This document shows positions 4,713 through 35,947 of a stretch of 35,947 nt of DNA, piece by piece. The notes below the pieces were generated by a model. The model was not told where the DNA came from. It did not search any database and saw nothing but the letters and a program-made list of their open reading frames with translations. Each line of letters opens with the position of its first letter. Position 1 is the stretch's first letter. A program made the translations under genes and the position numbers. The DNA is from a virus (Duplodnaviria; Heunggongvirae; Uroviricota; Caudoviricetes), in IMG/VR virus record IMGVR_UViG_2897375277_000005. One strand, 5' to 3'.

Positions 4713-5102
4713 ATGATTGACGCTCATGACTTCACAAGATGGGTGCGCACACAGGACACCCGTCTGGCTCCCATTCTTCAGGGATTATTTGATCTCTACA
4801 TCCGTGGTCGTGACAACAGAGCACGCACCACAAAACCGGAGAATGCGGACACCCTTTATTTCACAGTAGACGACTGCTACCGCGTGGATTTCACACCACA
4901 CGGGCTGGCGTTGCACTGCCTGACACCACACGGCGAATCACTGCTGGCGTATTATGACTCCCCGGCCTCCGTATTTGCGGCAATGCTGGCGCATCGCACT
5001 GCTGGCGGGTGTGCCTCGCTGAGTGAATACACCGCTGAATTTAACCGCCTTTCCGCCATCTTCTCGCAGGAGTGGCAGCGCGTGACGGGATACCAGCCAT
5101 GA
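4713..5102 (+). CDS. hypothetical protein, translationally coupled to A
   Basis: 129-aa ORF; its stop overlaps the A start (ATGA at 5099-5102). Confidence 0.55.
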   Translation: MIDAHDFTRWVRTQDTRLAPILQGLFDLYIRGRDNRARTTKPENADTLYFTVDDCYRVDFTPHGLALHCLTPHGESLLAYYDSPASVFAAMLAHRTAGGCASLSEYTAEFNRLSAIFSQEWQRVTGYQP

Positions 5103-7939
5103 GTGAGTTTGCATGGAGCTGGAATGAACCACGGCCAGCCATTGATCCGGCCAGATTTACGGAGCGCAGGCAGGAAACTGAAACCGACCTGCAACGCGCC
5201 ATCCGTTACTACCTTGAGGCGGACAAAAGGGCACAGGAAGAACAGGAAGCGAAGGAAGAAGCCTTTTTCGCACAATCCGCCATGGGTAAAAAACTCATGG
5301 CATCCCTTGAGGAAGCCGGACAGCGTGAAAAGCTGGCACAGAGCATCATCAGTAAGCGCCGGGCAACAGAACAAGACCCGGTAGCCCGTGCCTTTGCCAC
5401 ACTAAAGGCACTACCTGTTTATCTGCGTGAACCACTGAGCCGCCACCTCTCTTTCCTGCGCAAAAAACAGGAAGCCGATCGCCAGAAAGGCAAAAAGAGC
5501 TGGCAGGCGGAACGCTATGCACGCGGAACCCTGCGCAAAATATTCGAACGTCTGGATCGCACTGACGGACGCTGGCTGACACCGGGTTATCGCTCCCTTG
5601 CCGGGCGCGAACGCCTGGACGATTTGCTTTACCTGCCGCAGCTCAACAAGCACCAGATACAGACGCTGGCCACCATGACCGCGGCGATGTTCAGCAGCAC
5701 CTTCGAAACACTCTGCGATGGCTTTGGTGCCAGAGATGGCGAGCTGACCATGGATGTAATGTTGAAGGCTTACCGGATGCTGGCCCGCATGGCGTTACAC
5801 CTGCACGCCATGCCTCCACATTATGACGCACTAACAACAGACAAAGACCGGAGGAACGAACCGGACACGGAGCTGCTGCCGGGCGCAATCCTTCGCCTGA
5901 CCTGTGCGGAATGGTGGAAACGCAAACTGTGGCTGTTACGTTGCGAGTGGCGGGAAGAACAACTCCGCGCCGCCTGTCTGGTTTCCAGAAAGACATCACC
6001 CTATCTGAGCCAGGACGCGTTAAGCGAGTTTCGCGCACAGCGCGAGAAAACACGCGATTTCCTGAAAAGTTTCATGCTGGAAAACGAAGACGGGTTCACG
6101 ATTGATCTCGAGACAGTGTATTACGCGGGAGTAAGTAACCCGGTTCACCGTAAGGCAGAAATGATGGCCACCATGAAGGGACTGGAACTTCTGGCCGAAG
6201 CCCGTGGCGACAGAGCGGTGTTTCTGACCGTCACCTGCCCGTCAAAATACCACGCAACAACGGAGAACGGTCATCCGAACCCCAAATGGAACGGGGCCAC
6301 CATGCGCGACTCCAGCGATTACCTGGTTAACACGTTTTTTGCGGCGGTCCGCAAAAAACTGAACCGCGACGGCCTGCGCTGGTATGGCATCCGCACGGTG
6401 GAGCCTCACCATGACGGCACTGTGCACTGGCATATGATGGTCTTTGCACATCCGGACGAGATTGAAACCATCGTGTCCCACGTCTGCGATATTGCCATTC
6501 AGGAGGACCGCCACGAGCTGGGCGATGACATAACTCCGCGTTTTAAGGCGGAGTATGTCGACGGCTCAAAAGGCACACCAACCAGCTACATCGCCACCTA
6601 CATCGGAAAGAACCTGGACAGCCGCGCCGTGGATGGCATCGACCCGAAAACGGGCAAGCCACGCGTTGACCACGAAACCGGAAAATCAATGGCCGAGAGC
6701 GTGGAGCGCGCCATCGGCTGGGCGCGCCTTCACCGGGTCCGCCAGTTCCAGTTCTTTGGCATTCCCTCCCGTCAGGTGTGGCGTGAACTCCGCCGCCTTG
6801 CCAGCCAGATGGCACGCAACCCGGAGGGCCCGCAACGGCTGAAGGATGACGCAATGGATGCGGTTCTTGCTGCCGCTGATGCCGGGTGTTTTGCCACCTA
6901 CATTGAAAAACAGGGTGGCGTACTTGTTCCGCGCAAGGACTACCTGATTCGCACAGCCTACGACCTCGCAGATGAGCTGAACGATTACGGCGAACAGAGT
7001 GTACAGATTTACGGGATCTGGTCGCCACTCATCGGGGAATCCTCCCGTGTGTGCACGCACCCGGATAACTGGAAGCTGGTAAGACGTAAACCGGAAGCGG
7101 AAGACAGCACCCACGAAAATGGTTTTGACCTTCAGGGCGGCTCTGCCGCCCCTTGGACTCGTGGCAATAACTGTCCCCGTGTACAGGAAACAGACAACAA
7201 CGGGACAGAACAGCCGGAAGAACGGCCAGCACCGTGGCCGCAGCTTCCTGACGGCGTTGACGTGAACGAATGGGTGCGCTCACTGAAACGGCACGAACGC
7301 CGGGCGCTGATGCGTTCGCTGCGTGACAAACAGGCAAAAAACAGCAGTGATGAAATGCAGAACTGGACACAGAGCCGCAAACAGCCACAGCCTTTGCCTG
7401 ATAACCACGAATTACTCGCTAAAGAATGGCGGGAGTCTGCTGAATCTCTCGGCCTGCATATCGGTGAACAGCAGATGCAGCACCTGTTACGGGGCGGCAG
7501 TCTGTACGTTGACGGCAGCATCATTGCACCGCAGGGATTTGAAATTGTACGCAAACCGGATACCCGACCGGACAGCCGGATCACGCAGCTCTGGCAGCGC
7601 CTGAGCCGTAACCACGGCGTAAGCAGCACGGAGATCCGCCATAACCCGGTCGCCAGCTATCTGGAACAGCTGGGGGCATCAGACCCCGAAGCCGCCGCAC
7701 GCCTGGCATCCACACTTCAGCAAGACCAGAACACCATGAAAACACCCGTTACCGTGCTTTCTGACATGCTGCGCGCCATCCGCGACGCAGAGCACGCACA
7801 GAGAATCAGTGAAACCACTGAACGCGCCCGCCGCAAAGCAGACCTGCTGCGGGGTGGCCTGACCATTGGAAACAAAAAACAGACAGAAACGGGATTCACA
7901 AATCCCGTAAATGAGCAAAAAACGCGCCGCGATATATGA
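5099..7939 (+). CDS. A: replication initiation endonuclease (P2 A family, rolling-circle initiator) with long C-terminal extension
   Basis: 946-aa ORF at the P2 A position at the end of the early operon. Relaxase-like core with HWH (VHWHMMVFAH) and tyrosine (TSYIATYIGKN) motifs. About 180 aa longer than P2 A (761 aa). Confidence 0.8.
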   Translation: MSEFAWSWNEPRPAIDPARFTERRQETETDLQRAIRYYLEADKRAQEEQEAKEEAFFAQSAMGKKLMASLEEAGQREKLAQSIISKRRATEQDPVARAFATLKALPVYLREPLSRHLSFLRKKQEADRQKGKKSWQAERYARGTLRKIFERLDRTDGRWLTPGYRSLAGRERLDDLLYLPQLNKHQIQTLATMTAAMFSSTFETLCDGFGARDGELTMDVMLKAYRMLARMALHLHAMPPHYDALTTDKDRRNEPDTELLPGAILRLTCAEWWKRKLWLLRCEWREEQLRAACLVSRKTSPYLSQDALSEFRAQREKTRDFLKSFMLENEDGFTIDLETVYYAGVSNPVHRKAEMMATMKGLELLAEARGDRAVFLTVTCPSKYHATTENGHPNPKWNGATMRDSSDYLVNTFFAAVRKKLNRDGLRWYGIRTVEPHHDGTVHWHMMVFAHPDEIETIVSHVCDIAIQEDRHELGDDITPRFKAEYVDGSKGTPTSYIATYIGKNLDSRAVDGIDPKTGKPRVDHETGKSMAESVERAIGWARLHRVRQFQFFGIPSRQVWRELRRLASQMARNPEGPQRLKDDAMDAVLAAADAGCFATYIEKQGGVLVPRKDYLIRTAYDLADELNDYGEQSVQIYGIWSPLIGESSRVCTHPDNWKLVRRKPEAEDSTHENGFDLQGGSAAPWTRGNNCPRVQETDNNGTEQPEERPAPWPQLPDGVDVNEWVRSLKRHERRALMRSLRDKQAKNSSDEMQNWTQSRKQPQPLPDNHELLAKEWRESAESLGLHIGEQQMQHLLRGGSLYVDGSIIAPQGFEIVRKPDTRPDSRITQLWQRLSRNHGVSSTEIRHNPVASYLEQLGASDPEAAARLASTLQQDQNTMKTPVTVLSDMLRAIRDAEHAQRISETTERARRKADLLRGGLTIGNKKQTETGFTNPVNEQKTRRDI

Positions 7940-7984
7940 AGCGCGCATAAAACAGGCAAAAACGGGATTTCAGAATCCCGTAAA
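7887..7984. repeat. two copies of a 20-bp palindrome (ACGGGATT-N4-AATCCCGT), centres 73 bp apart; candidate parC-like centromere/operator
   Basis: Copy 1 at 7889-7908, inside the last codons of A; copy 2 at 7962-7981, 35 bp upstream of parM. CAAAAAAC-type motifs recur between them. Confidence 0.5.
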
Positions 7985-8015
7985 CGATTAATTAATCAAC
8001 ATAAGGAAAAGCGAC

Positions 8016-8975
8016 ATGAAAATTTGTATCGATGACGGCTCCACCAACATCAAGCTGGCATGGACTGAGAACGGCGAACGCCGCAACGCCATCAGCCCGA
8101 ACAGCTTCAAGTCGGAATGGTCTGCGCCGTTCGGTGGCACGCAGCCCGCGAACTACATGCTTGATGGCGTGCGCTATGGTTTTGATCCGGTCAGCGATCG
8201 CTTTGTCCAGACGACCGACACGCAATACCAGTACAGCGATGTGAATGTCATTGCCATTCATCACGCGCTGGTCAAATCAGGCATCACACCACAGGAAGTG
8301 GATGTGGTTGTCACCCTGCCACTGAGCGAATATTTCGACACAAACGCACAGCCGGACATGGCCAACATCAACCGCAAAAAAGCAAACGTCATGCGCCCGG
8401 TGGCGTACCAGAACGGAAAAGCATTCACTATCCGTAACGTACGGGTTATGCCTGAATCCATTCCGGCTGGTTTTAAAGCACTGGCTGACATGAGTCCGTT
8501 TGAATCCCTGCTGATTGTGGATTTAGGCGGAACCACGCTGGATGTGGCAAAGGTTCAGGGACAACTGGCAGGTATCAGCCAGGTGTTTTGCGATCCACAC
8601 GTAGGCGTTTCCCTGATGGCCGATGCCGTACTGTCGGTGATGGCCACTAACGGTATGCGTACCAGTCACCATATCGCCAATACCATTATCGAACATCGCC
8701 ACGATGAAGCCTGGCTGCGCCAGCACATCCACAATGACGCGCATTACGACAGCCTGATGGCGGTTATTCGTGAAAAGGAAGAAACACTGAAACAACGAGT
8801 GATCCGCGCGCTGGCGGGTTTTTCGGGTTACGGGCGGGTGATGGTTGTCGGTGGCGGGGCGGAGATTGTGGCACCCGCTATCCGCGAAGCCTGCGGAGTT
8901 AATGCGACTTTCATCGCGGACGGGGTGCCACAGTTTGCTCTGGTTAATGGGCTGTACGCAATGGACAAGGAGTAA
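8016..8975 (+). CDS. parM: actin-like segregation ATPase ParM/StbA
   Basis: N-terminus MKICIDDGSTNIKLAW...ISPNSFKSEW...YQYSDVNVIAIHHAL...RKKANV matches remembered plasmid R1 ParM (MLVFIDDGSTNIKLQW...ISPNSFKREW...WQYSDVNVVAVHHAL...RKKAN). Also carries the actin-fold phosphate motifs (DLGGTTLD, VVGGGAE). Confidence 0.85.
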   Translation: MKICIDDGSTNIKLAWTENGERRNAISPNSFKSEWSAPFGGTQPANYMLDGVRYGFDPVSDRFVQTTDTQYQYSDVNVIAIHHALVKSGITPQEVDVVVTLPLSEYFDTNAQPDMANINRKKANVMRPVAYQNGKAFTIRNVRVMPESIPAGFKALADMSPFESLLIVDLGGTTLDVAKVQGQLAGISQVFCDPHVGVSLMADAVLSVMATNGMRTSHHIANTIIEHRHDEAWLRQHIHNDAHYDSLMAVIREKEETLKQRVIRALAGFSGYGRVMVVGGGAEIVAPAIREACGVNATFIADGVPQFALVNGLYAMDKE

Positions 8976-8979
8976 ACCA

Positions 8980-9291
8980 ATGACGACACCAACCAGACGG
9001 ATAAGTTTCTATCTGAAGCCCGCCGCCGTCAAGAACGAAGGCGAAGCATGCGCCTGGCTGGACAGCCTTACACCAGAAGCCCGCAAAAGCGGCCAACGTG
9101 TGGCTTTTCTGGCCGGGCTGGCACTTCTGAAAATGAATCCGGCAGAGGCTTACCGACTGGCTGCATGGGCTGACGATGAGGCGTTATCAGTGACACAAAC
9201 CAGGACAGAACGCCCCGCGTCACAGCCAGTACCAACCTCACAGATAACCAGTCGGATGGCCGGAAATATCAGGGCGTTATTTCCCGAATAA
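8980..9291 (+). CDS. parR: ParR/StbB-like centromere-binding adaptor
   Basis: 103 aa directly downstream of parM with AGGAG RBS. RISFYLKPAAV...LDSLTPEARKSGQRVAFLAGLAL resembles R1 ParR (RTIAFKLNPDV...LDSIPQGERSRLNRAALTAGLAL). Confidence 0.65.
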   Translation: MTTPTRRISFYLKPAAVKNEGEACAWLDSLTPEARKSGQRVAFLAGLALLKMNPAEAYRLAAWADDEALSVTQTRTERPASQPVPTSQITSRMAGNIRALFPE

Positions 9292-9354
9292 CACAACATC
9301 AGGGCGCATCCGCCCTGATGACTTTAATCCGGGAACATAAACAAGGGGGACACA

Positions 9355-9690
9355 ATGCAACACATTGACAGAGAAAAAGCGCAGCGACTGATTGAGCGGA
9401 TGGAAGCGCTGGCGAAAGAAGAAAATGTCAACATCCAAAAAATAGCTGAATGTGGCCAGATAGTTCTTCGTCGTGAAAAAGACCTCAAACAACTGATGTC
9501 TGGCGAAACCAGCAAAACATGGACTTCAGGCGAGGAGACGATTTATTGCAGCTTCTGCAATAAATCTCAGTACGAAGTCACAAAGGTGATTGCCGGACCG
9601 TCTGTTTGCATCTGCAATGAGTGCGTGGATTTGTGCAATGAAATTATCAAGGGAGAAGTGACAGACCATGAAGAAAAAACGCATGAATGA
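9355..9690 (+). CDS. small protein with C-terminal ClpX-type C4 zinc-binding domain
   Basis: Residues 64-105 ([39 protein letters not shown]) are near-identical to the ClpX N-terminal zinc-binding domain ([41 protein letters not shown]). N-terminal 60 aa is helical and charged. AGGGGG RBS. Confidence 0.7.
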
Positions 9691-9750
9691 CGAATTTGAC
9701 GGCTTTTAATTTTATCGGGGTGCACTGTCGCCCCGCACGAGGAAAACACG

Positions 9751-10275
9751 ATGAAAAAATACGAATACATGCTAATGAAAGAAGCACTGCGGGCTGGTCT
9801 GGCTCCCTGTCCTGTATCCGTAGAAGCTGTTGTTGGGAACACGATTTTCCGAACGCTGCGAAATCGCGTATCCGTGAAGATGATTCACCAACCACCCAAA
9901 TCTACCAGCATGATCTATCTGCCGCTGCCCGAGGCTATCAAACTTATGCGTTCGCTGAAATTTGCGATTTGGATGCAGACACAACTCAACAAAGCGGTGC
10001 AAAACACCTTCGTTAAGAAACTGATGCCGGAGCTTGCTGCCAGAAGTGCAAAATGTACCAGACCCGCACTTCAATTTGATCTGTCATTGATTCAACAAGC
10101 TACGGAGGCAGAACTGTACCGCCTGTCACCTCTCCATGATGCTCACACGGAAGCCTCAGAAATGTTCCGGCTCATGTTTCAATTTAATTTTGCCGTTCGA
10201 CGCACACGCATTCAGGTCAATCGCATGATGCAGGCGCAGGAAGAGCTGACGCAACACAAAGGAGGCAACCAGTGA
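9751..10275 (+). CDS. hypothetical protein (174 aa)
   Basis: ORF with GAGGAAA RBS; no recognisable motif. Confidence 0.5.
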   Translation: MKKYEYMLMKEALRAGLAPCPVSVEAVVGNTIFRTLRNRVSVKMIHQPPKSTSMIYLPLPEAIKLMRSLKFAIWMQTQLNKAVQNTFVKKLMPELAARSAKCTRPALQFDLSLIQQATEAELYRLSPLHDAHTEASEMFRLMFQFNFAVRRTRIQVNRMMQAQEELTQHKGGNQ

Positions 10276-10447
10276 GCAAAATTGACTATCAGGCATTACG
10301 CGAGGCGGCACAAAACTATCAATCGACGCTGGCGTGGTATGAGGTTGACGCGGGCTAGTTTTGCCGCAAGGATAATTCGTTTCAGCGGGTGATTTTTTGC
10401 GCTATCATTCCGGCAGTGGTTCACGATTATTGGCAGGAAAGGCAATT

Positions 10448-11041
10448 ATGAGCAGTAAAAAAAATAAAATAACATCTATGGCCGCAGCGCTGGCGGTGGC
10501 TCTCGCCCCTGTTCCTGCCAGTAGCATTGTGCATCATGACTTATCAATCTCCCGGCACAGTACGTCTACGCTATCCCTCCAGGACGTAAAGGATTCTGTG
10601 GCATACCTTCCTATTGATGAGGCCACCAGTTATATGCTTAACCTGGCTGATAGGATGAAGACACACAGGGCAAACCTTCGCATCGAATGGGAAGAAAAGC
10701 AGATCCCTATTATTCTGAAAAATCAGAAAAAAGAGACTCAGGAAGGGTTTGAAAGCCTTTTCCGTCATATTGCGGTATGTGCAAGTTTTGTCGAGGCTGC
10801 AAGGGTTGCGCTGAAAAGCGTACCTGAAAGTAACGCGGAACTGAGAAAAGAGATTGTCGCTTTTGCTCGTTCCGCTGCGACGCTCCGCTATACGATTGAA
10901 GATATTTTATCCTTCATTGAAAGCACGCATGTGCCGAAGAAAACTTCAGATGCTGATCTGGGTGTTACCGCCGATCAGGTTCGCGCACTTATCCGCAGTG
11001 AACATAAAAAGCTGGGCCTTAAAGATCCAACGTTCCATTAA
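10448..11041 (+). CDS. hypothetical protein with N-terminal hydrophobic/signal-like segment (197 aa), upstream partner of the YafO-like toxin
   Basis: AGGAAAGG RBS before ATG 10448. N-terminus MSSKKNKITSMAAALAVALAPVPASS; stop lies 10 bp before the next start. Confidence 0.55.
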   Translation: MSSKKNKITSMAAALAVALAPVPASSIVHHDLSISRHSTSTLSLQDVKDSVAYLPIDEATSYMLNLADRMKTHRANLRIEWEEKQIPIILKNQKKETQEGFESLFRHIAVCASFVEAARVALKSVPESNAELRKEIVAFARSAATLRYTIEDILSFIESTHVPKKTSDADLGVTADQVRALIRSEHKKLGLKDPTFH

Positions 11042-11050
11042 GGCAGGGCC

Positions 11051-11431
11051 ATGATTAAAGTCTCTGTCCACAATGACATAGAACTCCCCGCAGTTGCTCG
11101 TAAATATGCACATGCTTTGCAGTCATGGAAAAACGGCGGATCTTTACCCTCAGTCTTTGGCAACGAAGGGCAGTGGGAAGATAGCGGGCGTCTTCGTGAT
11201 TCTTTTGTTTTTAAGATTCACATTCGTTTACCTGATGAACAGCCGTGGCCTGCAAAGCTACCTGCCGCCTCGCGTAAATCAAACAGTTATCTTGTTTACT
11301 CCCGCCATTTCTTATATCCAGATAAGTATCAGCTAATCAGCATTATGACACCCAATGCGCATGAGTTAGCCCGTACATCCTACATGGCAGAAATTGAGCG
11401 CAGAGCAGAAGAGTTCCAGTCTTCTTTTTGA
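11051..11431 (+). CDS. YafO-family toxin (ribosome-dependent mRNA interferase family)
   Basis: 126 aa. HIRLPDEQPWP...SYLVYSRHFLYPDKYQLISIMTPNAHELARTSYMAEIERRAEEF aligns with remembered E. coli YafO (HIHLANENNPFP...AHLVYCQGAFDEQAWLLIAILKPEPHKLARDNNQMHKIGKMAEAF). Confidence 0.65.
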   Translation: MIKVSVHNDIELPAVARKYAHALQSWKNGGSLPSVFGNEGQWEDSGRLRDSFVFKIHIRLPDEQPWPAKLPAASRKSNSYLVYSRHFLYPDKYQLISIMTPNAHELARTSYMAEIERRAEEFQSSF

Positions 11432-11472
11432 GTTTTGCGACGACTATCTATCAATCCCTTACTAATCTGAAA

Positions 11473-11500
11473 AGCTGCCTTTTGAAGGCGGCTTTTCTTT
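11473..11500 (+). terminator. rho-independent terminator closing the cargo operon
   Basis: Stem AGCTGCC/GGCGGCT (one G-U pair), 7-nt loop, then TTTTCTTT. Confidence 0.5.
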
Positions 11501-11973: not shown

Positions 11974-13020
11974 TCAGGATGTGGGCTGGGTGTCCAGCAG
12001 TGCGTAAGGGTTAAAGCGGATCACCTCTTCGCCAAGCCAGTCATTGATGTGCTTCATAGCCTCCATGACGGGCATCAGCTCGTTAATTGCGTAAACCCGC
12101 GCGGCCTTCTCCACATCACCAAACGCACTTTTTTCGCCCGGCATTGCCCCCATCAGTTGCGGCGGAACGCGGTGCGCAGCCAGCACATCATCACGGGATG
12201 CCGCCTTAACATTCATGAACTCATCCTTTGCGGTGATCTGCTGGAACGGCAAAATTTGCACCCCCTCTTTGCCCCCGTTGGGCGCGTGGATGAGCACGTT
12301 TTTAAACGCACCACCACCACGCGCACCCTGTAACGTTTCTTTCAGGGAGTCCATGCTTTCGCGGTTTACCTGCGCTGCACCGATGTAGATGATGCACCCG
12401 GCGTGGGATCCGTTGTCGTAATACAGTTTTCTGAACATGTCCGCCGAATGAGACAGGCTGGCCGAGAGTAATGCGCCAAGATATTCCGGCATGCCGTAAA
12501 TTTCCTGGTTAATGTCCGGATTCATCAGGTGGCACACTTTGCCAGGGCGAAACTGAAACGCGTCCTTGCCATCCTGCACATACCACCATGATTCAAGATC
12601 GCTTCCGCGTCGCATGTATTTCGCCAGTGCGTGCCGTAATTTAAGTGGTTCGCCGAGCATATTGCTCCGAAGCTCAAGGAATGCGTTACCGAACACAAAC
12701 CAGTCCAGCGCCAGCGCCGAGAAATCCTGCCGGGAAAGCAGCGGGTGCGGGATGTAGCAACCGAGCAATACATTGCGCTTAAAGTAAAGCGCAGACTGAT
12801 GCCAGGACGTTTGCCGGGCGGCTCTTGCCAGACCGTACCAGTCCACCGGGGTTTCATACCACCGCCCGTTATCAGCACAGTACATATTGTCCAGCAGGTC
12901 ATGCCCGGTCAGGCGATAAGGACCATCAAATGTGAATGCACTGAGCGATGATTCTTTCCTGAGCGCATCAGCGAGATCAATGCGTGAACTCATGCGCACT
13001 TTTTTATTTTTTCTGCTCAT
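11974..13020 (-). CDS. Q: portal protein (P2 Q family)
   Basis: 348-aa minus-strand ORF, leftward with P and divergent from O-N-M-L as in P2; size matches the P2 portal. Confidence 0.85.
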   Translation of the reverse strand: MSRKNKKVRMSSRIDLADALRKESSLSAFTFDGPYRLTGHDLLDNMYCADNGRWYETPVDWYGLARAARQTSWHQSALYFKRNVLLGCYIPHPLLSRQDFSALALDWFVFGNAFLELRSNMLGEPLKLRHALAKYMRRGSDLESWWYVQDGKDAFQFRPGKVCHLMNPDINQEIYGMPEYLGALLSASLSHSADMFRKLYYDNGSHAGCIIYIGAAQVNRESMDSLKETLQGARGGGAFKNVLIHAPNGGKEGVQILPFQQITAKDEFMNVKAASRDDVLAAHRVPPQLMGAMPGEKSAFGDVEKAARVYAINELMPVMEAMKHINDWLGEEVIRFNPYALLDTQPTS

Positions 13021-14771
13021 CAGAACTCCATAACCGTGAAACGCTCGTTTTCTCCTTCGCCGCCAATTGGTTCGTTAATGACAGCAAGCATGGTTGCCCA
13101 CGCAAGGTCGCCGTGGCTGATCCCCCTCGCGCGGTCCGTTTCGTAAGTGATAAAGCCGCCCGGTGTTTTCACCTTACGCACGGCGTTAAAGGCCGCGACC
13201 AGCTCGCGTTCGGCGCGATCGTATTCCCACCGTCCGGCACGCATTATTTGCAGCATTTTCAGTACCAGCGACCGTTTGGATGACAGCGTGAAGGTGTACG
13301 GAATAGCAGCAGGGAAAAACCGCTTCACTATCTGATAAACAGCCTCCCCGTTCCCGCCCGTCACATCAATGCCGATGTGTTCCACGTTGTAGCGACACGT
13401 GAACTCTTCAATGACTCTGGCCTGTTCTTCAAACTCCAGCCCCTGAACGCGTCGCGTCTCCACCGTTCGAAAACGGCCACCAGGAACAGCCGGAGGAACC
13501 ACCACGGACACAGCGCCGCTGTCGCCGTTGCCACTGCTGCCGTTTGCGTCATACCCAATCCATACCGGACGATTCCCCATCGGGCGGGGAGCAAAAGGTT
13601 TCCAGTCTTTCCAGTCGTCGTATCCGTCAACACCGCAGCCAATCAGGATATTCAGGTTAAATGCCGATTCCCCTTCGCGGACAAACTCACACATATAGAG
13701 ATTGCGGAACTCGTCTTCGGTGTTTTCATCACGAATTTCGTCAATATCGGTGTGTTTCCAGCCGTGATTAACCACATCTTCCAGCGTGACAATTTGCCGC
13801 CACGTCCGGTCAGGGCAGATAAGCCCGTTATGCAGCGTTTTCCAGTCCACAGAAAAACGCTGGCGTTTATGCGTGGCCTTTTTCTCGTTCCAGCGGTCGC
13901 CGTTCCAGTAGGCGTATGCCTCGTGCGTTTCGGTGGATGGCGTGGAGAAGTAGGTGCGCCGCAGTCCGCTGAGGGTTGCCATAGCGCCAGCCACCTTGCG
14001 CAGTTCAGCAAAGCGGCTGACCCAGAAAAATTCATCAAAATAAAAATTGCCCGTGTAGGACTGTGCCGTCGCAGCAGAAGTACCAAGAAAATGCAGCTCT
14101 GCACCGTTGGAGAGGATGATTTTATCGCCCCCTTTCAGCTCCACATCAACTTCAGATGCAGCCTTCTGAATAATGCTTTTAAACTGGAACGCCTGACGAC
14201 GCGACGCAGACAAAAAAATCTGGTTACGCTGGTAAGGTTGTGCCACATCGTCACGCAGTGCCATCAGCAGTGCTTCCTGTGCAAAATACCAGGTCGCCCC
14301 AATCTGTCGGGATTTCAGGATCATCCTGTTACGTATCCCGGCTTCCCTGCAAAGGGTCAGAGAGTCAAACCAGCCCCGCTGATGCCACTCCAGCCTGCTG
14401 ATGATTTTTTCCCGCAGTGCGGCAATCTGTTCCGGCGTGAAATGATTTTTGAGTTTTTTCGCCCGGCTTTTCTTTCCTGTGGCCGTCGCATCCGGCTGGC
14501 CATCATGCAGTTTTTTAAGCTGCCGGGTCAGCAGGTCTATTTCCTTGAAGTCACCACCTGTTTTATTCTGTTTTTCAGTAAGCTGGATGAGGCGCGCATC
14601 GATGGACTGCGTGACACGCTGCACGGGTGGTGTTTCATCCCACTGGTCGCGTTTTTTCCACGCATAAATCGTGTTCGGGTTTATTCCCATCAGACGTGAT
14701 ATTTCTGCGGGCGGATAACCCTGCCAGTAAAGTTGCCGCGCACGCTGGCGCACAAAAGCGTCCTGAATCAT
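13020..14771 (-). CDS. P: terminase large (ATPase) subunit (P2 P family)
   Basis: 583-aa ORF coupled to Q, with an N-terminal HTH-like segment and a central ATPase region. Confidence 0.85.
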   Translation of the reverse strand: MIQDAFVRQRARQLYWQGYPPAEISRLMGINPNTIYAWKKRDQWDETPPVQRVTQSIDARLIQLTEKQNKTGGDFKEIDLLTRQLKKLHDGQPDATATGKKSRAKKLKNHFTPEQIAALREKIISRLEWHQRGWFDSLTLCREAGIRNRMILKSRQIGATWYFAQEALLMALRDDVAQPYQRNQIFLSASRRQAFQFKSIIQKAASEVDVELKGGDKIILSNGAELHFLGTSAATAQSYTGNFYFDEFFWVSRFAELRKVAGAMATLSGLRRTYFSTPSTETHEAYAYWNGDRWNEKKATHKRQRFSVDWKTLHNGLICPDRTWRQIVTLEDVVNHGWKHTDIDEIRDENTEDEFRNLYMCEFVREGESAFNLNILIGCGVDGYDDWKDWKPFAPRPMGNRPVWIGYDANGSSGNGDSGAVSVVVPPAVPGGRFRTVETRRVQGLEFEEQARVIEEFTCRYNVEHIGIDVTGGNGEAVYQIVKRFFPAAIPYTFTLSSKRSLVLKMLQIMRAGRWEYDRAERELVAAFNAVRKVKTPGGFITYETDRARGISHGDLAWATMLAVINEPIGGEGENERFTVMEF

Positions 14772-26283: not shown

Positions 26284-26883
26284 ATGCTTATTGGCTATGT
26301 CCGCGTATCAACAAATGACCAGAATACAGAATTGCAGCGTAACGCGCTGGAGTGCGCAGGATGTGAACTGATTTTTGAAGATAAAATCAGCGGAACGAAA
26401 TCAGCCAGACCGGGATTGAAAAAACTGCTCAGAACGCTATCAGAAGGAGATACGCTGGTTGTCTGGAAGCTGGACAGACTGGGCAGAAGTATGAAACACC
26501 TGATCACGCTTATTGAGGAATTGCGGGAAAAAGGTGTTAATTTCCGTAGTCTGACGGACAGCATTGACACATCAACACCCATGGGGCGTTTCTTTTTTCA
26601 CGTCATGGGAGCTTTAGCCGAAATGGAACGTGAATTAATTGTAGAGCGTACACTGGCCGGGCTGGCAGCAGCACGCGCACAAGGACGCATTGGCGGACGT
26701 CGCCCGAAGTTGACAAAAGAACAACACGAGCAAATAGCGAGGCTGATTAAAAACGGTCATGACAGGAAACAACTGGCGATCATTTACGACATCGGCATAT
26801 CGACGATTTATCGTTATCACCCTGTAGGCGATATACAGGCTGAAGAAACAACCAGGCAGATTCAGGAAAATGAAAACCGCTAA
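26284..26883 (+). CDS. serine DNA invertase (Hin/Gin/Cin/Pin family)
   Basis: MLIGYVRVSTNDQNTELQ...GDTLVVWKLDRLGRSMKHL...catalytic Ser in VRVST and C-terminal HTH; 199 aa. Confidence 0.9.
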   Translation: MLIGYVRVSTNDQNTELQRNALECAGCELIFEDKISGTKSARPGLKKLLRTLSEGDTLVVWKLDRLGRSMKHLITLIEELREKGVNFRSLTDSIDTSTPMGRFFFHVMGALAEMERELIVERTLAGLAAARAQGRIGGRRPKLTKEQHEQIARLIKNGHDRKQLAIIYDIGISTIYRYHPVGDIQAEETTRQIQENENR

Positions 26884-34512: not shown

Positions 34513-34809
34513 ATGAGTGAAATGGTATTTTGTCGCGGATGCGGCAAGGAAATACATAAAGATGCCACATCCTGCCCCAATTGTGGAGCACCTCAAAGAA
34601 CAGCAAGTTCAAAAAGCAGAATGACAGCCGCACTACTGGCTTTCTTTTTAGGTGGTCTTGGTGCACACAAATTTTATTTAGGTAAAGTGGGGCAAGGATT
34701 CCTTTACCTTATTTTTTGCTGGACATTCATTCCGGCAATCGTGGCATTTATTGAGTTTTTTATCTATCTATGCACCTCTGATGAAGACTTTGCCCGCAAA
34801 TATGGCTAA
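34513..34809 (+). CDS. zinc-ribbon plus TM2-domain membrane protein
   Basis: N-terminal CxxC...CxxC (CRGCGKEIHKDATSCPNCG) followed by two hydrophobic helices typical of TM2-domain proteins (LAFFLGGLGAHKFYLGK...). Confidence 0.6.
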   Translation: MSEMVFCRGCGKEIHKDATSCPNCGAPQRTASSKSRMTAALLAFFLGGLGAHKFYLGKVGQGFLYLIFCWTFIPAIVAFIEFFIYLCTSDEDFARKYG

Positions 34810-34998: not shown

Positions 34999-35196
34999 AT
35001 GACGCAAAATGTACGATGCAAAAATTGCAACAAACTACTTGCCCGCGCCTCATTTCACTACATTGAAATAAAATGTCCGCGCTGCAAAACACTTAACCAG
35101 ATAACGAGAGCCATCGAGCACCCCACACACATGAGGAGTTATGACCGTGGGGATCGCAATCCAGCACCAACCAGCACATACACCGGAACACACTAA
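34999..35196 (+). CDS. com: Com-like zinc-finger protein (Mu Com family translational activator)
   Basis: VRCKNCNKLLARASFHYIEIKCPRCK matches Mu Com (IRCKNCNKLLFKADSFDHIEIRCPRCK); AAGAGG RBS; its 3' end overlaps the methyltransferase start. Confidence 0.65.
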   Translation: MTQNVRCKNCNKLLARASFHYIEIKCPRCKTLNQITRAIEHPTHMRSYDRGDRNPAPTSTYTGTH

Positions 35197-35947
35197 GGTT
35201 TATCAGACTGACAATGCCACGCTCTGTCGTGGGAATGCGCTGGAAATATTGCCGCTGATTGAGCCAGAAAGTATTGATGCCTTAATCACTGACCCGCCTT
35301 ACAGTTCGGGCGCGACACACAAGGCCGGACGCACCAACCAGGGCAGCCACGCAAAATATCTGAACGGCGAGAACCTTCATCGCTTTGATGGGTTTGCGGG
35401 TGAAAACATGGATGCCCGTTCGTGGGCTTACTGGACACAATTATGGATGGCACAGGCACACCGCGCAGTCAGGCCGGGCGGTTATGCCCTGGTATTTACT
35501 GACTGGCGACAACTACCAGCTTTAACCGATGCGTTTCAGGCCAGTGGCTTTACATGGCGCGGTATCATTGCGTGGAACAAGGGGAGGGGGTCACGAACAC
35601 CCCATACCGGGTATTTCCGGCATCAGTGCGAATACATTGTCTGGGGCAGCAAAGGCCATTTAGATAAATCGCCTTCGGGGCCGTTCGACGGCTGCATGAC
35701 GTTCCCGGTTATCCCGTCAAAGAAAATGCACCCGACCGGAAAACCAGAAGAACTAATGGCAGAGCTGGTCAGGACTGTGAATAGTGGCGGAACAGTCCTT
35801 GATCCTTTTATGGGGTCAGGGACAACGGGTGTGGCTGCACTGAAAGCAGGGCGAAAATTTATTGGTATAGAAACCAGTGATCATTATTTTGAGGTAGCAG
35901 CGCAGCGGCTTCGGGGGACTATTACCACAACCATTTCGGCTACATAA
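35141..35947 (+). CDS. DNA amino-methyltransferase (N6-adenine or N4-cytosine, beta-class motif order)
   Basis: DPPY motif (LITDPPYSS) followed C-terminally by the SAM-binding FxGxG motif (FMGSGTTGVAA); GAGGAG RBS. Specificity cannot be told from sequence alone. Confidence 0.8.
   Translation: MTVGIAIQHQPAHTPEHTKVYQTDNATLCRGNALEILPLIEPESIDALITDPPYSSGATHKAGRTNQGSHAKYLNGENLHRFDGFAGENMDARSWAYWTQLWMAQAHRAVRPGGYALVFTDWRQLPALTDAFQASGFTWRGIIAWNKGRGSRTPHTGYFRHQCEYIVWGSKGHLDKSPSGPFDGCMTFPVIPSKKMHPTGKPEELMAELVRTVNSGGTVLDPFMGSGTTGVAALKAGRKFIGIETSDHYFEVAAQRLRGTITTTISAT

What the first reader, a model, noticed from the sequence alone, without database searches (positions are those of the whole stretch)
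9355..9690. Stand-alone ClpX-type zinc-binding domain fused to a short helical N-terminus
The last 45 residues are nearly identical to the ClpX N-terminal C4 zinc-binding domain, which in ClpX dimerises and recognises adaptors and substrates such as SspB, lambda O and MuA. A free copy without the AAA+ module could act as a decoy or dominant-negative that titrates ClpX adaptors or substrates, or redirects ClpXP proteolysis. This is an inferred role; the domain identity is directly visible.
Basis: partly seen in the sequence, partly recalled or inferred. Interest (0 to 1): 0.65.

Follow-up and report, generated by a model that had tools for sequence, protein, structure and literature searches.

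The report
Phage-borne free ClpX zinc-finger protein
A P2-like prophage of E. coli carries a small, intact and selectively maintained gene whose product is a two-helix N-terminal hairpin tethered to a copy of the zinc-binding docking domain of the host unfoldase ClpX; the domain call is solid and already in public annotation, but whether it really jams or redirects ClpXP proteolysis is an untested, plausible idea.

Summary
The ORF (9355-9690, +, 111 aa) is real. Residues 63-102 are a bona fide ClpX-type C4 zinc-binding domain (ZBD): Pfam E=2e-16, 29/40 identical to E. coli ClpX, and the model superposes on ZBD crystal structures at 0.6-0.7 A. In front lie a family-specific helical hairpin and a disordered linker. 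The window is a P88/P2-like prophage. The gene sits in the gpA-to-portal accessory hotspot, as a ~400-bp cassette directly after a ParM/ParR module. About 9% of ParMR-bearing E. coli prophages carry it. Diverged relatives occupy the same hotspot in Salmonella P2-like prophages without ParMR, and early-type operons of D6/P1-like phage-plasmids. Both folded domains are under purifying selection (dN/dS ~0.33). RefSeq already names it 'ClpX C4-type zinc finger protein', PHROGs holds it as an unknown-function family, and Rousset et al. 2022 list this locus in a supplementary table. I found no functional study. The decoy idea has in vitro precedent, because isolated ZBD blocks adaptor-mediated degradation in trans. 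However, similar identity is seen in unrelated stand-alone ZBD proteins, and one ligand-pocket residue (ClpX L12) is not kept. Verdict: observation confirmed, function plausible but unproven, moderate interest.

The parts
9289..9354 (+). Leader of the ZBD cassette: 10-bp-stem hairpin at 9297-9320 and a GGGGG Shine-Dalgarno-like run at 9345-9349
   Evidence: The hairpin folds at dG -19.6 kcal/mol, z = -3.4 against shuffles. On the + strand it lacks a proper T-tract, and the scan flags it as terminator-like only on the - strand. It is part of the ~400-bp stretch missing in L004.
9355..9690 (+). CDS of the stand-alone ClpX-type zinc-finger protein (111 aa plus stop)
   Evidence: ORF list; Pfam, PHROG and NCBIfam hits. 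40 of 41 complete IMG/VR copies are intact. dN/dS is 0.42 overall.
9355..9501 (+). N-terminal helical hairpin domain (aa 1-49), specific to this family
   Evidence: AF2 helices 6-22 and 27-49, pLDDT 88-94. The same architecture appears in the 41%-identical Salmonella member. There is a conserved a/d-type hydrophobic seam plus near-invariant E17, E23 and L38. No Pfam or PDB homolog was found. dN/dS is 0.33.
9502..9540 (+). Flexible linker (aa 50-62)
   Evidence: pLDDT ~50, below 50 at residues 56-59. Length varies between subfamilies. dN/dS is 0.75.
9541..9660 (+). ClpX-type C4 zinc-binding domain (aa 63-102); Cys ligands C65, C68, C87, C90
   Evidence: Pfam PF06689 E=2.2e-16. PDB 1OVX/2DS5 E~1e-17. 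Foldseek rmsd 0.6-0.7 A, 68-74% identity to 2DS5-8. 29/40 identical to E. coli ClpX residues 12-51. dN/dS is 0.34.
9661..9687 (+). Variable acidic C-terminal tail (aa 103-111)
   Evidence: Three different tail versions track the different downstream regions in related loci, so the recombination junction lies at the 3' end of the gene.
7873..7987 (.). Context: two 42-nt direct repeats, each with the palindrome ACGGGATT-N4-AATCCCGT, just upstream of parM (candidate parC/operator)
8016..9291 (+). Context: ParM (8016-8975) and ParR (8980-9291) partition module immediately upstream
   Evidence: Pfam StbA_N/ParM_N and Plasmid_stab_B. Present in 1303 of 5426 E. coli genomes. It is system #1 of the P2 hotspot in Rousset 2022 Table S5B.
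5072..7939 (+). Context: P2-type replication endonuclease gpA, the left border of the hotspot
   Evidence: RefSeq annotation of the near-identical locus L001; tblastn across loci.
9751..11497 (+). Context: variable cargo downstream. Hypothetical 174 aa (9751-10275), 197-aa signal/TM-like protein (10448-11041), YafO-family toxin (11051-11431) and the only strong + strand terminator (11469-11497)
11974..13020 (-). Context: portal protein gpQ, the right border of the hotspot

Best explanation
The gene encodes an accessory protein of temperate enterobacterial phages. It is co-directional with the replication genes and is probably expressed with them. The protein presents an autonomous ClpX-type ZBD, most likely a ZBD dimer, on a helical-hairpin stalk. 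Its most likely activity is to compete with the ZBDs of host ClpX for the short peptide motifs of ZBD-dependent adaptors and substrates. Examples are the SspB tail, RssB, lambda-O-type N-terminal signals, MuA, and N-domain degrons of antitoxins such as MqsA. This would selectively dampen adaptor- or N-domain-dependent ClpXP proteolysis while leaving pore-recognised substrates such as ssrA tags untouched. What is shown: the ORF, the domain, the fold prediction, the architecture, purifying selection, and the mobile-cassette behaviour and phage context. What is inferred: dimerisation, ligand binding, timing of expression and the biological pay-off. Possible pay-offs are stabilising a phage or host protein, blunting toxin-antitoxin-based abortive infection, or raising sigma-S.
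For: The ZBD identity and fold are secure. 14 of 15 hydrophobic positions of the ClpX ZBD, which form the dimer core and partner patch, are kept, including F16 and I46 (Houry numbering) = F67 and I97. L13 becomes I63, and H23 becomes Tyr or His (aromatic), polymorphic between alleles. Isolated ClpX ZBD is a folded, dimeric, autonomous binder. It inhibits RssB-dependent sigma-S degradation in trans (PMC7226468) and binds XB peptides at 35-82 nM (PMC12373786). Both folded domains are under purifying selection while the linker is relaxed (dN/dS 0.33, 0.34 and 0.75). 40 of 41 complete IMG/VR copies are intact. The family recurs in three phage settings, always on the strand of early or replication genes. 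These are P2-like after gpA-ParMR, Salmonella P2-like after gpA without ParMR, and D6/PhiR41_1 phage-plasmids among ea22/eaA-type genes. No sigma-70-like promoter was found and there is only one + strand terminator (11469-11497) between gpA and the end of the hotspot. Other phages independently carry tiny free ZBDs: Pseudomonas phage PP9W2 with 65 aa, Caulobacter phage Cr30 and phrog_12435.
Against: There is no direct evidence of any interaction. The identity to E. coli ClpX (72-78%) is no higher than that of unrelated actinobacterial stand-alone ZBD proteins (70-75%). The coding DNA shows no detectable similarity to host clpX, so nothing indicates tuning to the host protein. ClpX L12 is Thr62 here and varies across the family as T/P/A/N/E/L, and the ClpX L12S mutant loses MqsA-degron binding. 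Position 85 (ClpX Y35, next to a zinc ligand) is polymorphic Tyr/Cys. The conserved N-terminal hairpin has no role in a pure decoy model. In vitro inhibition needed a roughly 10-30-fold excess of ZBD over ClpXP (5-20 uM against 0.6 uM), so high expression would be required. Only ~9% of ParMR-bearing P2-like prophages keep the cassette, so any benefit is conditional.
Confidence: 0.35

Rival explanations
1. The role is independent of ClpX. The ZBD is used only as a compact dimeric treble-clef interaction module, and the protein binds some other host or phage target, in the way B. subtilis CsfB uses a ClpX-NTD-like zinc dimer to inhibit sigma factors. The conserved N-terminal hairpin would be the specificity element.
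For: zf-C4_ClpX is highly promiscuous. A family profile finds 16,297 cluster representatives at E<=1e-3. These include many tandem ZBD-ZBD proteins and fusions to HTH-like, DUF4388 and other domains. CsfB is a structurally similar zinc dimer with a function unrelated to ClpX (PMC5890618). The hairpin is as strongly constrained as the ZBD and has invariant acidic residues E17 and E23. Ligand-pocket residue L12 is not kept.
Against: The only biochemical activities ever shown for this domain are dimerisation and binding of ClpX adaptors and substrates. The partner patch F16/I46 and nearly all hydrophobic positions are retained. No alternative target is suggested by the gene neighbourhood, which differs between phage types.
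Confidence: 0.3
2. It is a phage-made adaptor or anti-adaptor that docks on ClpX. The ZBD heterodimerises with, or packs beside, the ZBDs of the ClpX hexamer, or binds an adaptor. The N-terminal hairpin carries a cargo, so a chosen protein is delivered to, or shielded from, ClpXP.
For: The two-module architecture with a flexible tether resembles tethering adaptors. The hydrophobic dimer-core positions are kept. A constrained second domain fits a cargo-binding role better than the pure decoy model does. Own knowledge: phage SPO1 Gp53 acts as an adaptor-like modulator of ClpCP.
Against: The ZBD homodimer is described as constitutive, and in ClpX the partner ZBD is tethered in cis, which makes subunit exchange unfavourable. 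No XB-like motif was found in the protein or in any phage ORF of at least 50 aa. No cargo candidate is conserved next to the gene.
Confidence: 0.12
3. It is a lysogen-expressed superinfection-exclusion or defence gene of the P2 gpA-gpQ hotspot. For example, it could block incoming phages that need the ClpX ZBD, such as Mu (transpososome remodelling) or lambda (O turnover).
For: The gene lies in the P2 locus that holds old/tin and many anti-phage systems (PMC9122126). Cargo around it includes a YafO-toxin pair listed as candidate system #123. Own knowledge: Mu lytic growth requires ClpX.
Against: None of the six hotspot proteins gives a PADLOC hit. The gene is not listed as a system in the held part of Table S5B. 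No promoter-like site was found in front of it. The D6-type relatives sit in early-gene-like operons rather than in defence islands. The same hotspot also carries non-defence cargo such as ParMR.
Confidence: 0.12
4. It is an accessory component of the adjacent ParM/ParR partition module.
For: In all 42 IMG/VR P2-type loci the gene directly follows parR. The gap is 63 nt in the window, with no clear + strand terminator between them.
Against: ParMR occurs without it in about 91% of cases: 1449 ParMR places against 112-128 places for the cassette, and 489 'StbA' against 43 'ClpX' entries in the held part of the table. L004 lacks exactly this cassette and is otherwise collinear. Family members in Salmonella P2-like prophages and D6-type phage-plasmids have no ParMR beside them.
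Confidence: 0.04
5. It is a decaying, functionless remnant.
For: One RefSeq copy has an internal stop (L001) and many truncated fragments exist in databases. The cassette is absent from most related prophages.
Against: 40 of 41 complete IMG/VR copies are intact, with 25 DNA alleles and dN/dS of about 0.33 in both folded domains against 0.75 in the linker. The architecture is conserved down to 41% identity.
Confidence: 0.03

Closest known systems
[quoted passage not shown]
   Same: The same Pfam domain and the same C-x2-C-x18-C-x2-C ligand spacing. 29/40 (72%) identity. Predicted fold within 0.6-0.7 A. 14 of 15 hydrophobic positions are kept, including the partner patch F16/I46.
   Different: It is not followed by an AAA+ module. 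The domain is C-terminal, not N-terminal, and is preceded by an unrelated helical hairpin. ClpX L12, G19, H23, R26, D38, D46, R49 and E50 (Met1 numbering) are substituted, and Tyr35 is Cys in this allele. There is no DNA-level similarity to host clpX.
Recombinant isolated ClpX ZBD used as an in-trans competitor in vitro (Micevski et al. 2020, PMC7226468; Izert-Nowakowska et al. 2025, PMC12373786)
   Same: A free ZBD without the unfoldase. It is the direct biochemical precedent for the proposed decoy mechanism.
   Different: That is a laboratory construct of the host sequence, and micromolar excess was needed. The phage protein is natural, diverged and carries an extra domain. Its binding has not been tested.
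Anti-adaptors IraP/IraD/IraM and prophage-encoded AppY (sigma-S stabilisation through the RssB pathway)
   Same: These are small, often horizontally acquired proteins that selectively block one adaptor-dependent ClpXP pathway (PMC10057817; PMC7226468).
   Different: Unrelated folds. They bind RssB or act on transcription and do not mimic a ClpX domain. No sequence similarity to them was found here.
Phage-encoded modulators of host AAA+ proteases: T4 PinA and T7 Gp4.5 (Lon), lambda CIII (FtsH), SPO1 Gp53 (ClpCP). Cited from my own knowledge and not checked here.
   Same: The concept is the same: a small early phage protein that reprogrammes host regulated proteolysis.
   Different: None targets ClpX and none works by copying a domain of the protease.
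B. subtilis anti-sigma factor CsfB/Gin (PDB 5N7Y)
   Same: A small stand-alone dimeric treble-clef zinc protein, structurally closest to the ClpX N-domain (PMC5890618).
   Different: Only ~20% identity to ClpX, with different surface and interface patterns, and it acts on sigma factors. The phage protein is a true sequence member of zf-C4_ClpX.
Other stand-alone or fused zf-C4_ClpX proteins: tandem ZBD-ZBD proteins of ~105 aa, actinobacterial ZBD plus HTH-like proteins of 125-136 aa, and 57-65-aa phage ZBDs such as the one in Pseudomonas phage PP9W2 (phrog_12435)
   Same: A free ClpX-type ZBD outside ClpX. All are uncharacterised.
   Different: They have different partner domains or none. The helical-hairpin N-domain is confined to the Escherichia/Salmonella phage family phrog_6797.

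Membership tests
zf-C4_ClpX domain (Pfam PF06689) | Profile score above the curated gathering threshold | tested here: met
   59.9 bits against a cut-off of 27, E=2.2e-16, aa 64-99 on profile positions 2-38 of 39.
zf-C4_ClpX domain (Pfam PF06689) | Four zinc-ligand cysteines with ClpX spacing (C15/C18/C37/C40 in ClpX) | tested here: met
   C65, C68, C87 and C90 are invariant across the family. The ligand assignment in ClpX comes from PMC8808172.
zf-C4_ClpX domain (Pfam PF06689) | Treble-clef fold that superposes on solved ZBD structures | tested here: met
   For the AF2 model, Foldseek probability is 1.00 and rmsd 0.6-0.7 A over 38-41 columns against 2DS5/6/7/8. This is a prediction, not a solved structure.
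zf-C4_ClpX domain (Pfam PF06689) | Zinc binding and constitutive dimerisation | not testable with these tools
   Only indirect evidence: 14 of 15 hydrophobic core or interface positions are kept. No multimer prediction or coordinates were available.
ClpX unfoldase (TIGR00382 / PRK05342) | AAA+ ATPase module with a ClpP-docking loop; whole-protein score above the equivalog cut-off | tested here: not met
   The protein is 111 aa. It scores 47.5 bits against a cut-off of 370.75, and only model positions 6-53 match.
PHROG phrog_6797 (phage family of unknown function) | Full-length profile match | tested here: met
   E=5.4e-57, aa 1-105 on profile positions 5-106 of 107.
ClpXP decoy or anti-adaptor (functional class) | Binds a ClpX adaptor or substrate motif and inhibits its ClpXP-dependent degradation | not testable with these tools
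   Pocket residues are partly kept: F67, I97 and I63 are kept, Y/H73 is aromatic, and T62 is not kept. There are no binding data.
Known anti-phage defence systems (PADLOC-DB v2) | Match to a defence-protein model | tested here: not met
   No hit for this protein or its five neighbours at E<=0.01.
ParMRC plasmid-partition system | Obligatory co-occurrence with ParM/ParR | tested here: not met
   ParMR mostly occurs without it, and family members occur without ParMR.
P2 gpA-gpQ accessory hotspot cargo | Located between the replication endonuclease gpA and the portal gpQ of a P2-like prophage, with presence/absence polymorphism | tested here: met
   Synteny holds in the RefSeq locus L001 and 42 IMG/VR loci. 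There is a precise ~400-bp indel relative to L004. The locus content is listed in Rousset 2022 Table S5A.

The most novel reading that the evidence does not exclude
This would be the first natural viral mimic of a ClpX domain. Temperate phages of E. coli and Salmonella would express a free, dimeric ClpX docking domain that soaks up adaptor tails and N-domain degrons. That would switch off only the adaptor- or N-domain-dependent branch of ClpXP proteolysis. Possible uses are to stabilise labile antitoxins and so disarm toxin-antitoxin abortive infection, to stabilise a phage replication or regulatory protein, or, in lysogens, to raise sigma-S or exclude ClpX-dependent phages such as Mu. The many tandem ZBD-ZBD proteins seen in metagenomes would then be cellular versions of the same trick.
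Probability: 0.3. Interest if true: 0.7.

Novelty: new variant of a known kind. Interest (0 to 1): 0.45.

Why it matters
ClpXP controls sigma-S, the SOS response, antitoxin turnover, and lambda and Mu replication through its N-terminal docking domain. A phage-encoded free copy of that domain would be a new way for viruses to reprogramme host proteolysis, by domain mimicry rather than by an unrelated inhibitor. It would also give a natural, branch-selective ClpXP inhibitor for E. coli work. The family is present in roughly 4% of complete E. coli genomes and is common in Salmonella, lives in the best-studied phage-host system, and can be tested with off-the-shelf assays. If it turns out to be unrelated to ClpX, it still defines a new helical-hairpin-plus-ZBD architecture and shows that the ZBD is a general interaction module.

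Tried and rejected
(1) Remote homology of the N-terminal hairpin. A word-indexed profile search returned only family fragments. Pfam at E<=10 and a PDB profile search gave only noise. Foldseek against PDB and BFVD matched only the ZBD part.

(2) The exhaustive HMMER job was meant to be restricted to the N-domain. The profile kept the ZBD columns (127 positions), so it worked as a full-length profile. It still showed the family's subfamilies and the breadth of non-ClpX ZBDs.

(3) The search for related loci with family alignments failed three times because no stretch was conserved enough. The single-protein scan of viral contigs worked. The genome-contig scan was not run.

(4) Recent capture from host clpX is rejected. 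blastn in distant mode with the ZBD-coding 126 nt hit no clpX gene in 5426 E. coli genomes.

(5) 'High identity means host mimicry' is rejected, because actinobacterial stand-alone ZBDs are equally similar to E. coli ClpX.

(6) A defence-system assignment is rejected: no PADLOC hit.

(7) A functional link to ParMR is rejected on distribution.

(8) A search for SspB-XB-like motifs ([LIVM]R[LIVM][LIVM][KR] near C-termini, or A/PxLRVVK) in all window ORFs of at least 50 aa found nothing.

(9) Literature. No paper in the held library describes this family; the searches for 'ClpX C4-type zinc finger' and 'zf-C4_ClpX' each returned one unrelated paper. Thibault et al. 2006 (PNAS) is not held. I did not try to fetch Park et al. 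2007 (JMB) and know it only from reference lists. As a result, the full SspB-tail and dimer-interface residue lists could not be checked.

(10) The overlapping ORF 9687-10016 (+) is treated as spurious. RefSeq calls 9751-10275 instead, and that ORF is the conserved one.
Full report
**1. What is in the sequence**

An ATG-initiated ORF of 111 codons lies at 9355-9690 on the + strand. A GGGGG run sits five bases upstream of the start.

- Pfam places a ClpX C4-type zinc finger (PF06689) at residues 64-99, with E=2.2e-16 and 59.9 bits against a gathering threshold of 27.
- phmmer against all PDB chains returns only ClpX entries. The E. coli ZBD structures 1OVX and 2DS5 come first, at E~1e-17.
- NCBIfam ClpX equivalog models match only their first ~50 positions, far below cut-off (47.5 against 370.75 bits), so there is no AAA+ module.
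- The four zinc ligands are C65, C68, C87 and C90, with the ClpX spacing.
- Over ClpX residues 12-51 the window protein is 29/40 identical. The commoner Tyr85 allele reaches 31/40 and a Salmonella relative 35/40.

The domain is residues 63-102, and residues 103-111 are a variable tail. 'Nearly identical' should read about 72%.

**2. Architecture**

An AlphaFold2 model built on 19 sequences has mean pLDDT 81.

- Two helices, 6-22 and 27-49, have pLDDT around 90.
- A disordered linker spans 50-62.
- The ZBD superposes on 2DS5, 2DS6, 2DS7 and 2DS8 at 0.6-0.7 A over 38-41 columns.
- A 41%-identical Salmonella relative (P0018) gives the same layout with a longer linker.

The hairpin has a conserved a/d-type hydrophobic seam and near-invariant E17, E23 and L38. 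This suits a four-helix-bundle dimer or a partner-binding surface, but that reading is inference. The hairpin has no detectable relative outside this family by a word-indexed profile search, Pfam, a PDB profile search or Foldseek.

**3. Genomic setting**

The window is a P2-like (P88-type) prophage. It holds an integrase, a cox-like gene, the replication endonuclease gpA (5072-7939), the portal and terminase (11974-14771, - strand), P2-type capsid, tail and lysis genes, and a Hin-like invertase.

The gene lies in the accessory hotspot between gpA and gpQ. In phage P2 itself this locus holds old and tin (PMC9122126). The order here is:

1. gpA
2. two 42-nt palindrome-bearing repeats
3. ParM
4. 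ParR
5. the ZBD gene
6. a 174-aa hypothetical protein
7. a 197-aa signal/TM-like protein
8. a YafO-family toxin
9. a terminator at 11469-11497
10. the portal gene, on the opposite strand

These assignments rest. No sigma-70-like promoter was found anywhere between 7800 and 12000 (0 found, 4.2 expected). The only strong + strand terminator follows yafO. This fits read-through from the early or par transcripts, but it does not prove it.

**4. The gene is a discrete, mobile, maintained cassette**

- In 42 IMG/VR loci the gene always follows gpA-ParM-ParR, while the DNA downstream of it varies. The three versions of its C-terminal tail track that variation.
- A collinear P2-like prophage inside an IncHI2 plasmid (L004) lacks exactly the stretch from the parR stop codon to the ZBD stop codon. 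Both junctions read GAAT(A/G)A.
- ParMR occurs in 1303 of 5426 complete E. coli genomes. The P2-type cassette occurs in about 112-128 chromosomal places, which is roughly 9% of ParMR-bearing prophages.
- The held part of Rousset et al.'s table gives a similar ratio, 43 'ClpX' entries against 489 'StbA' entries.
- A diverged D6-type version (47-51% protein identity) sits on about 105 plasmid records of roughly 90-111 kb. In phages D6 and PhiR41_1 it lies among ea22/eaA-type early genes.
- In Salmonella P2-like prophages a 41-43% identical member sits after gpA without ParMR. Another member follows a MarR-like gene in a run of small genes.
- Source names place all labelled members in Escherichia or Salmonella.
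- Among 25 DNA alleles, dN/dS is 0.33 for the hairpin, 0.75 for the linker and 0.34 for the ZBD. 40 of 41 complete IMG/VR copies are intact, and one RefSeq copy carries an internal stop.

The gene is thus a functional, independently mobile accessory gene. It is not part of the partition system and it is not a remnant.

**5. How it most likely works**

The only activities ever demonstrated for this domain are dimerisation and the binding of short motifs from ClpX adaptors and substrates.

- Isolated ZBD is an autonomous folded dimer. It inhibits RssB-dependent sigma-S degradation when added in trans (PMC7226468).
- Isolated ZBD binds SspB-tail peptides with a Kd of 35-82 nM (PMC12373786).
- The hydrophobic patch around F16 and I46 serves lambda O, trigger factor, SspB and RssB (PMC7804408).
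- L12, L13 and H23 (Met1 numbering) are needed for the MqsA antitoxin degron, and this site overlaps the SspB-tail site (PMC8808172).

In the phage protein, F67 and I97 (= F16 and I46) and I63 (= L13) are kept. Residue 73 (= H23) is Tyr or His. Residue 62 (= L12) is Thr and varies across the family.

My best reading, at confidence 0.35, is a competitive decoy for ZBD ligands. It would selectively dampen adaptor- or N-domain-dependent ClpXP proteolysis and would be made together with the phage's replication genes.

Points against this reading:
- No interaction data exist.
- The L12 position is not kept.
- The well-conserved hairpin has no role in the model.
- The in vitro precedent needed a large molar excess of ZBD.
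- Similarity to E. coli ClpX is no greater than that of unrelated actinobacterial stand-alone ZBDs.
- There is no DNA similarity to host clpX.

**6. Rivals**

- A ClpX-independent role (confidence 0.30). The domain would serve as a generic zinc dimer. Support comes from the domain's promiscuity: 16,297 cluster representatives at E<=1e-3, with many tandem ZBD-ZBD proteins and assorted fusions. CsfB is a ClpX-NTD-like anti-sigma factor and sets a precedent (PMC5890618).
- A docking adaptor or anti-adaptor (0.12). This fits the two-module tethered design, but ZBD dimers are constitutive and no cargo or XB-like motif was found.
- A lysogen-expressed exclusion gene (0.12). This fits the hotspot, but there is no PADLOC hit, no promoter-like site, and the D6-type context argues otherwise.
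- A ParMR accessory (0.04) and a remnant (0.03). Both are disfavoured by the distribution and by selection.

**7. Relation to what is known**

- The domain call is not new. RefSeq/PGAP already labels the gene 'ClpX C4-type zinc finger protein'. The older label 'carboxylate--amine ligase' is a misannotation.
- PHROGs holds the family as phrog_6797, function unknown.
- Rousset et al. [quoted passage not shown] I could not find the protein in the held part of their Table S5B list of systems.
- I found no paper that studies this or any other stand-alone ZBD protein.
- Membership of zf-C4_ClpX is met. Membership of ClpX proper, of PADLOC defence families and of the ParMRC system is tested and not met.
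- If it works as proposed, it would resemble the Ira anti-adaptors and phage protease modulators such as PinA, Gp4.5, CIII and Gp53, but would act through domain mimicry. I therefore rate it a new variant of a known kind.

**8. Verdict**

Interest is moderate (0.45). The family is widespread and uncharacterised, sits in the best-studied phage-host system and carries a cheap, sharp, testable hypothesis. However, the domain identity is already public and no function is shown.

Noticed in passing
window 7873-7914 and 7946-7987: Two 42-nt direct repeats (81% identical, 73 nt apart), each containing the palindrome ACGGGATT-N4-AATCCCGT. They straddle the gpA stop codon (7939) and lie just upstream of parM (8016). 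They are a candidate parC centromere or ParR operator.
   Followed up: partly
window 9289-9690 versus L004 7290-7300: The ZBD cassette is a precise ~400-bp presence/absence polymorphism. The stop-codon regions of parR and of the ZBD gene both read GAAT(A/G)A, so the indel looks microhomology-mediated.
   Followed up: yes
window 9607-9609 (codon 85): A Tyr/Cys polymorphism sits at the position equivalent to ClpX Tyr35, two residues before a zinc ligand. Cys occurs in the window and in 7 of the IMG/VR loci, Tyr in the rest. D6-type members have Phe, P0010 has Trp and P0100 has Cys. The effect on zinc site or dimer is unknown.
   Followed up: partly
window 10448-11431: A 197-aa protein with a signal/TM-like N-terminus lies directly upstream of a YafO-family toxin (Pfam E=2e-27). 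This pair is candidate system #123 (24 occurrences) in Rousset 2022 Table S5B. The upstream protein has no family hit and is much larger than a typical antitoxin.
   Followed up: partly
window 8016-9291: A ParM/ParR partition module sits inside an integrated P2-like prophage. The same module is present in 24% of complete E. coli genomes, almost always chromosomal (1449 of 1451 places). Rousset et al. suggest it may allow plasmid-like maintenance.
   Followed up: partly
proteins P0102, P0110, P0122, P0145, P0152, P0171, P0181, P0196 and others: Many proteins of ~105 aa in the protein library (predicted from public genomes and metagenomes) consist of two ClpX-type ZBDs in tandem and nothing else. 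They could fold into an intramolecular mimic of the ZBD dimer. Proteins with 3-5 ZBD copies also exist. None appears to be characterised.
   Followed up: no
proteins P0020, P0022, P0039, P0045, P0051, P0057: This family of 124-145-aa proteins has an N-terminal ClpX-type ZBD and a conserved C-terminal ...GVSWxRIGExLGxS(K/R)QAAWERFSGE(D/E) segment that looks like a helix-turn-helix.
   Followed up: no
L047-L049 (Salmonella P2-like prophages), 6001-6387: A 41-43% identical family member with a longer linker occupies the same gpA-portal hotspot but without ParMR. It lies next to small hypothetical genes and an Ogr/Delta-like gene on the opposite strand.
   Followed up: partly
window 9687-10016 (+): A 109-codon ORF starts at an ATG that overlaps the ZBD stop codon (ATGA) and lies out of frame with the annotated 174-aa gene (9751-10275). 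It is probably spurious, because RefSeq and cross-locus conservation support the 174-aa gene.
   Followed up: partly
window 34513-34809 and 35141-35947: Beyond the tail genes at the right end lie a 98-aa protein with a zinc ribbon plus a TM2 domain and a DNA methylase (N6_N4_Mtase) that runs off the window. They may be cargo of the second P2 hotspot or flanking host DNA.
   Followed up: no
window 26284-26883: A Hin/Gin-type serine invertase (Resolvase plus HTH_7) lies between oppositely oriented tail-fibre and assembly genes. This suggests an invertible host-range segment.
   Followed up: no
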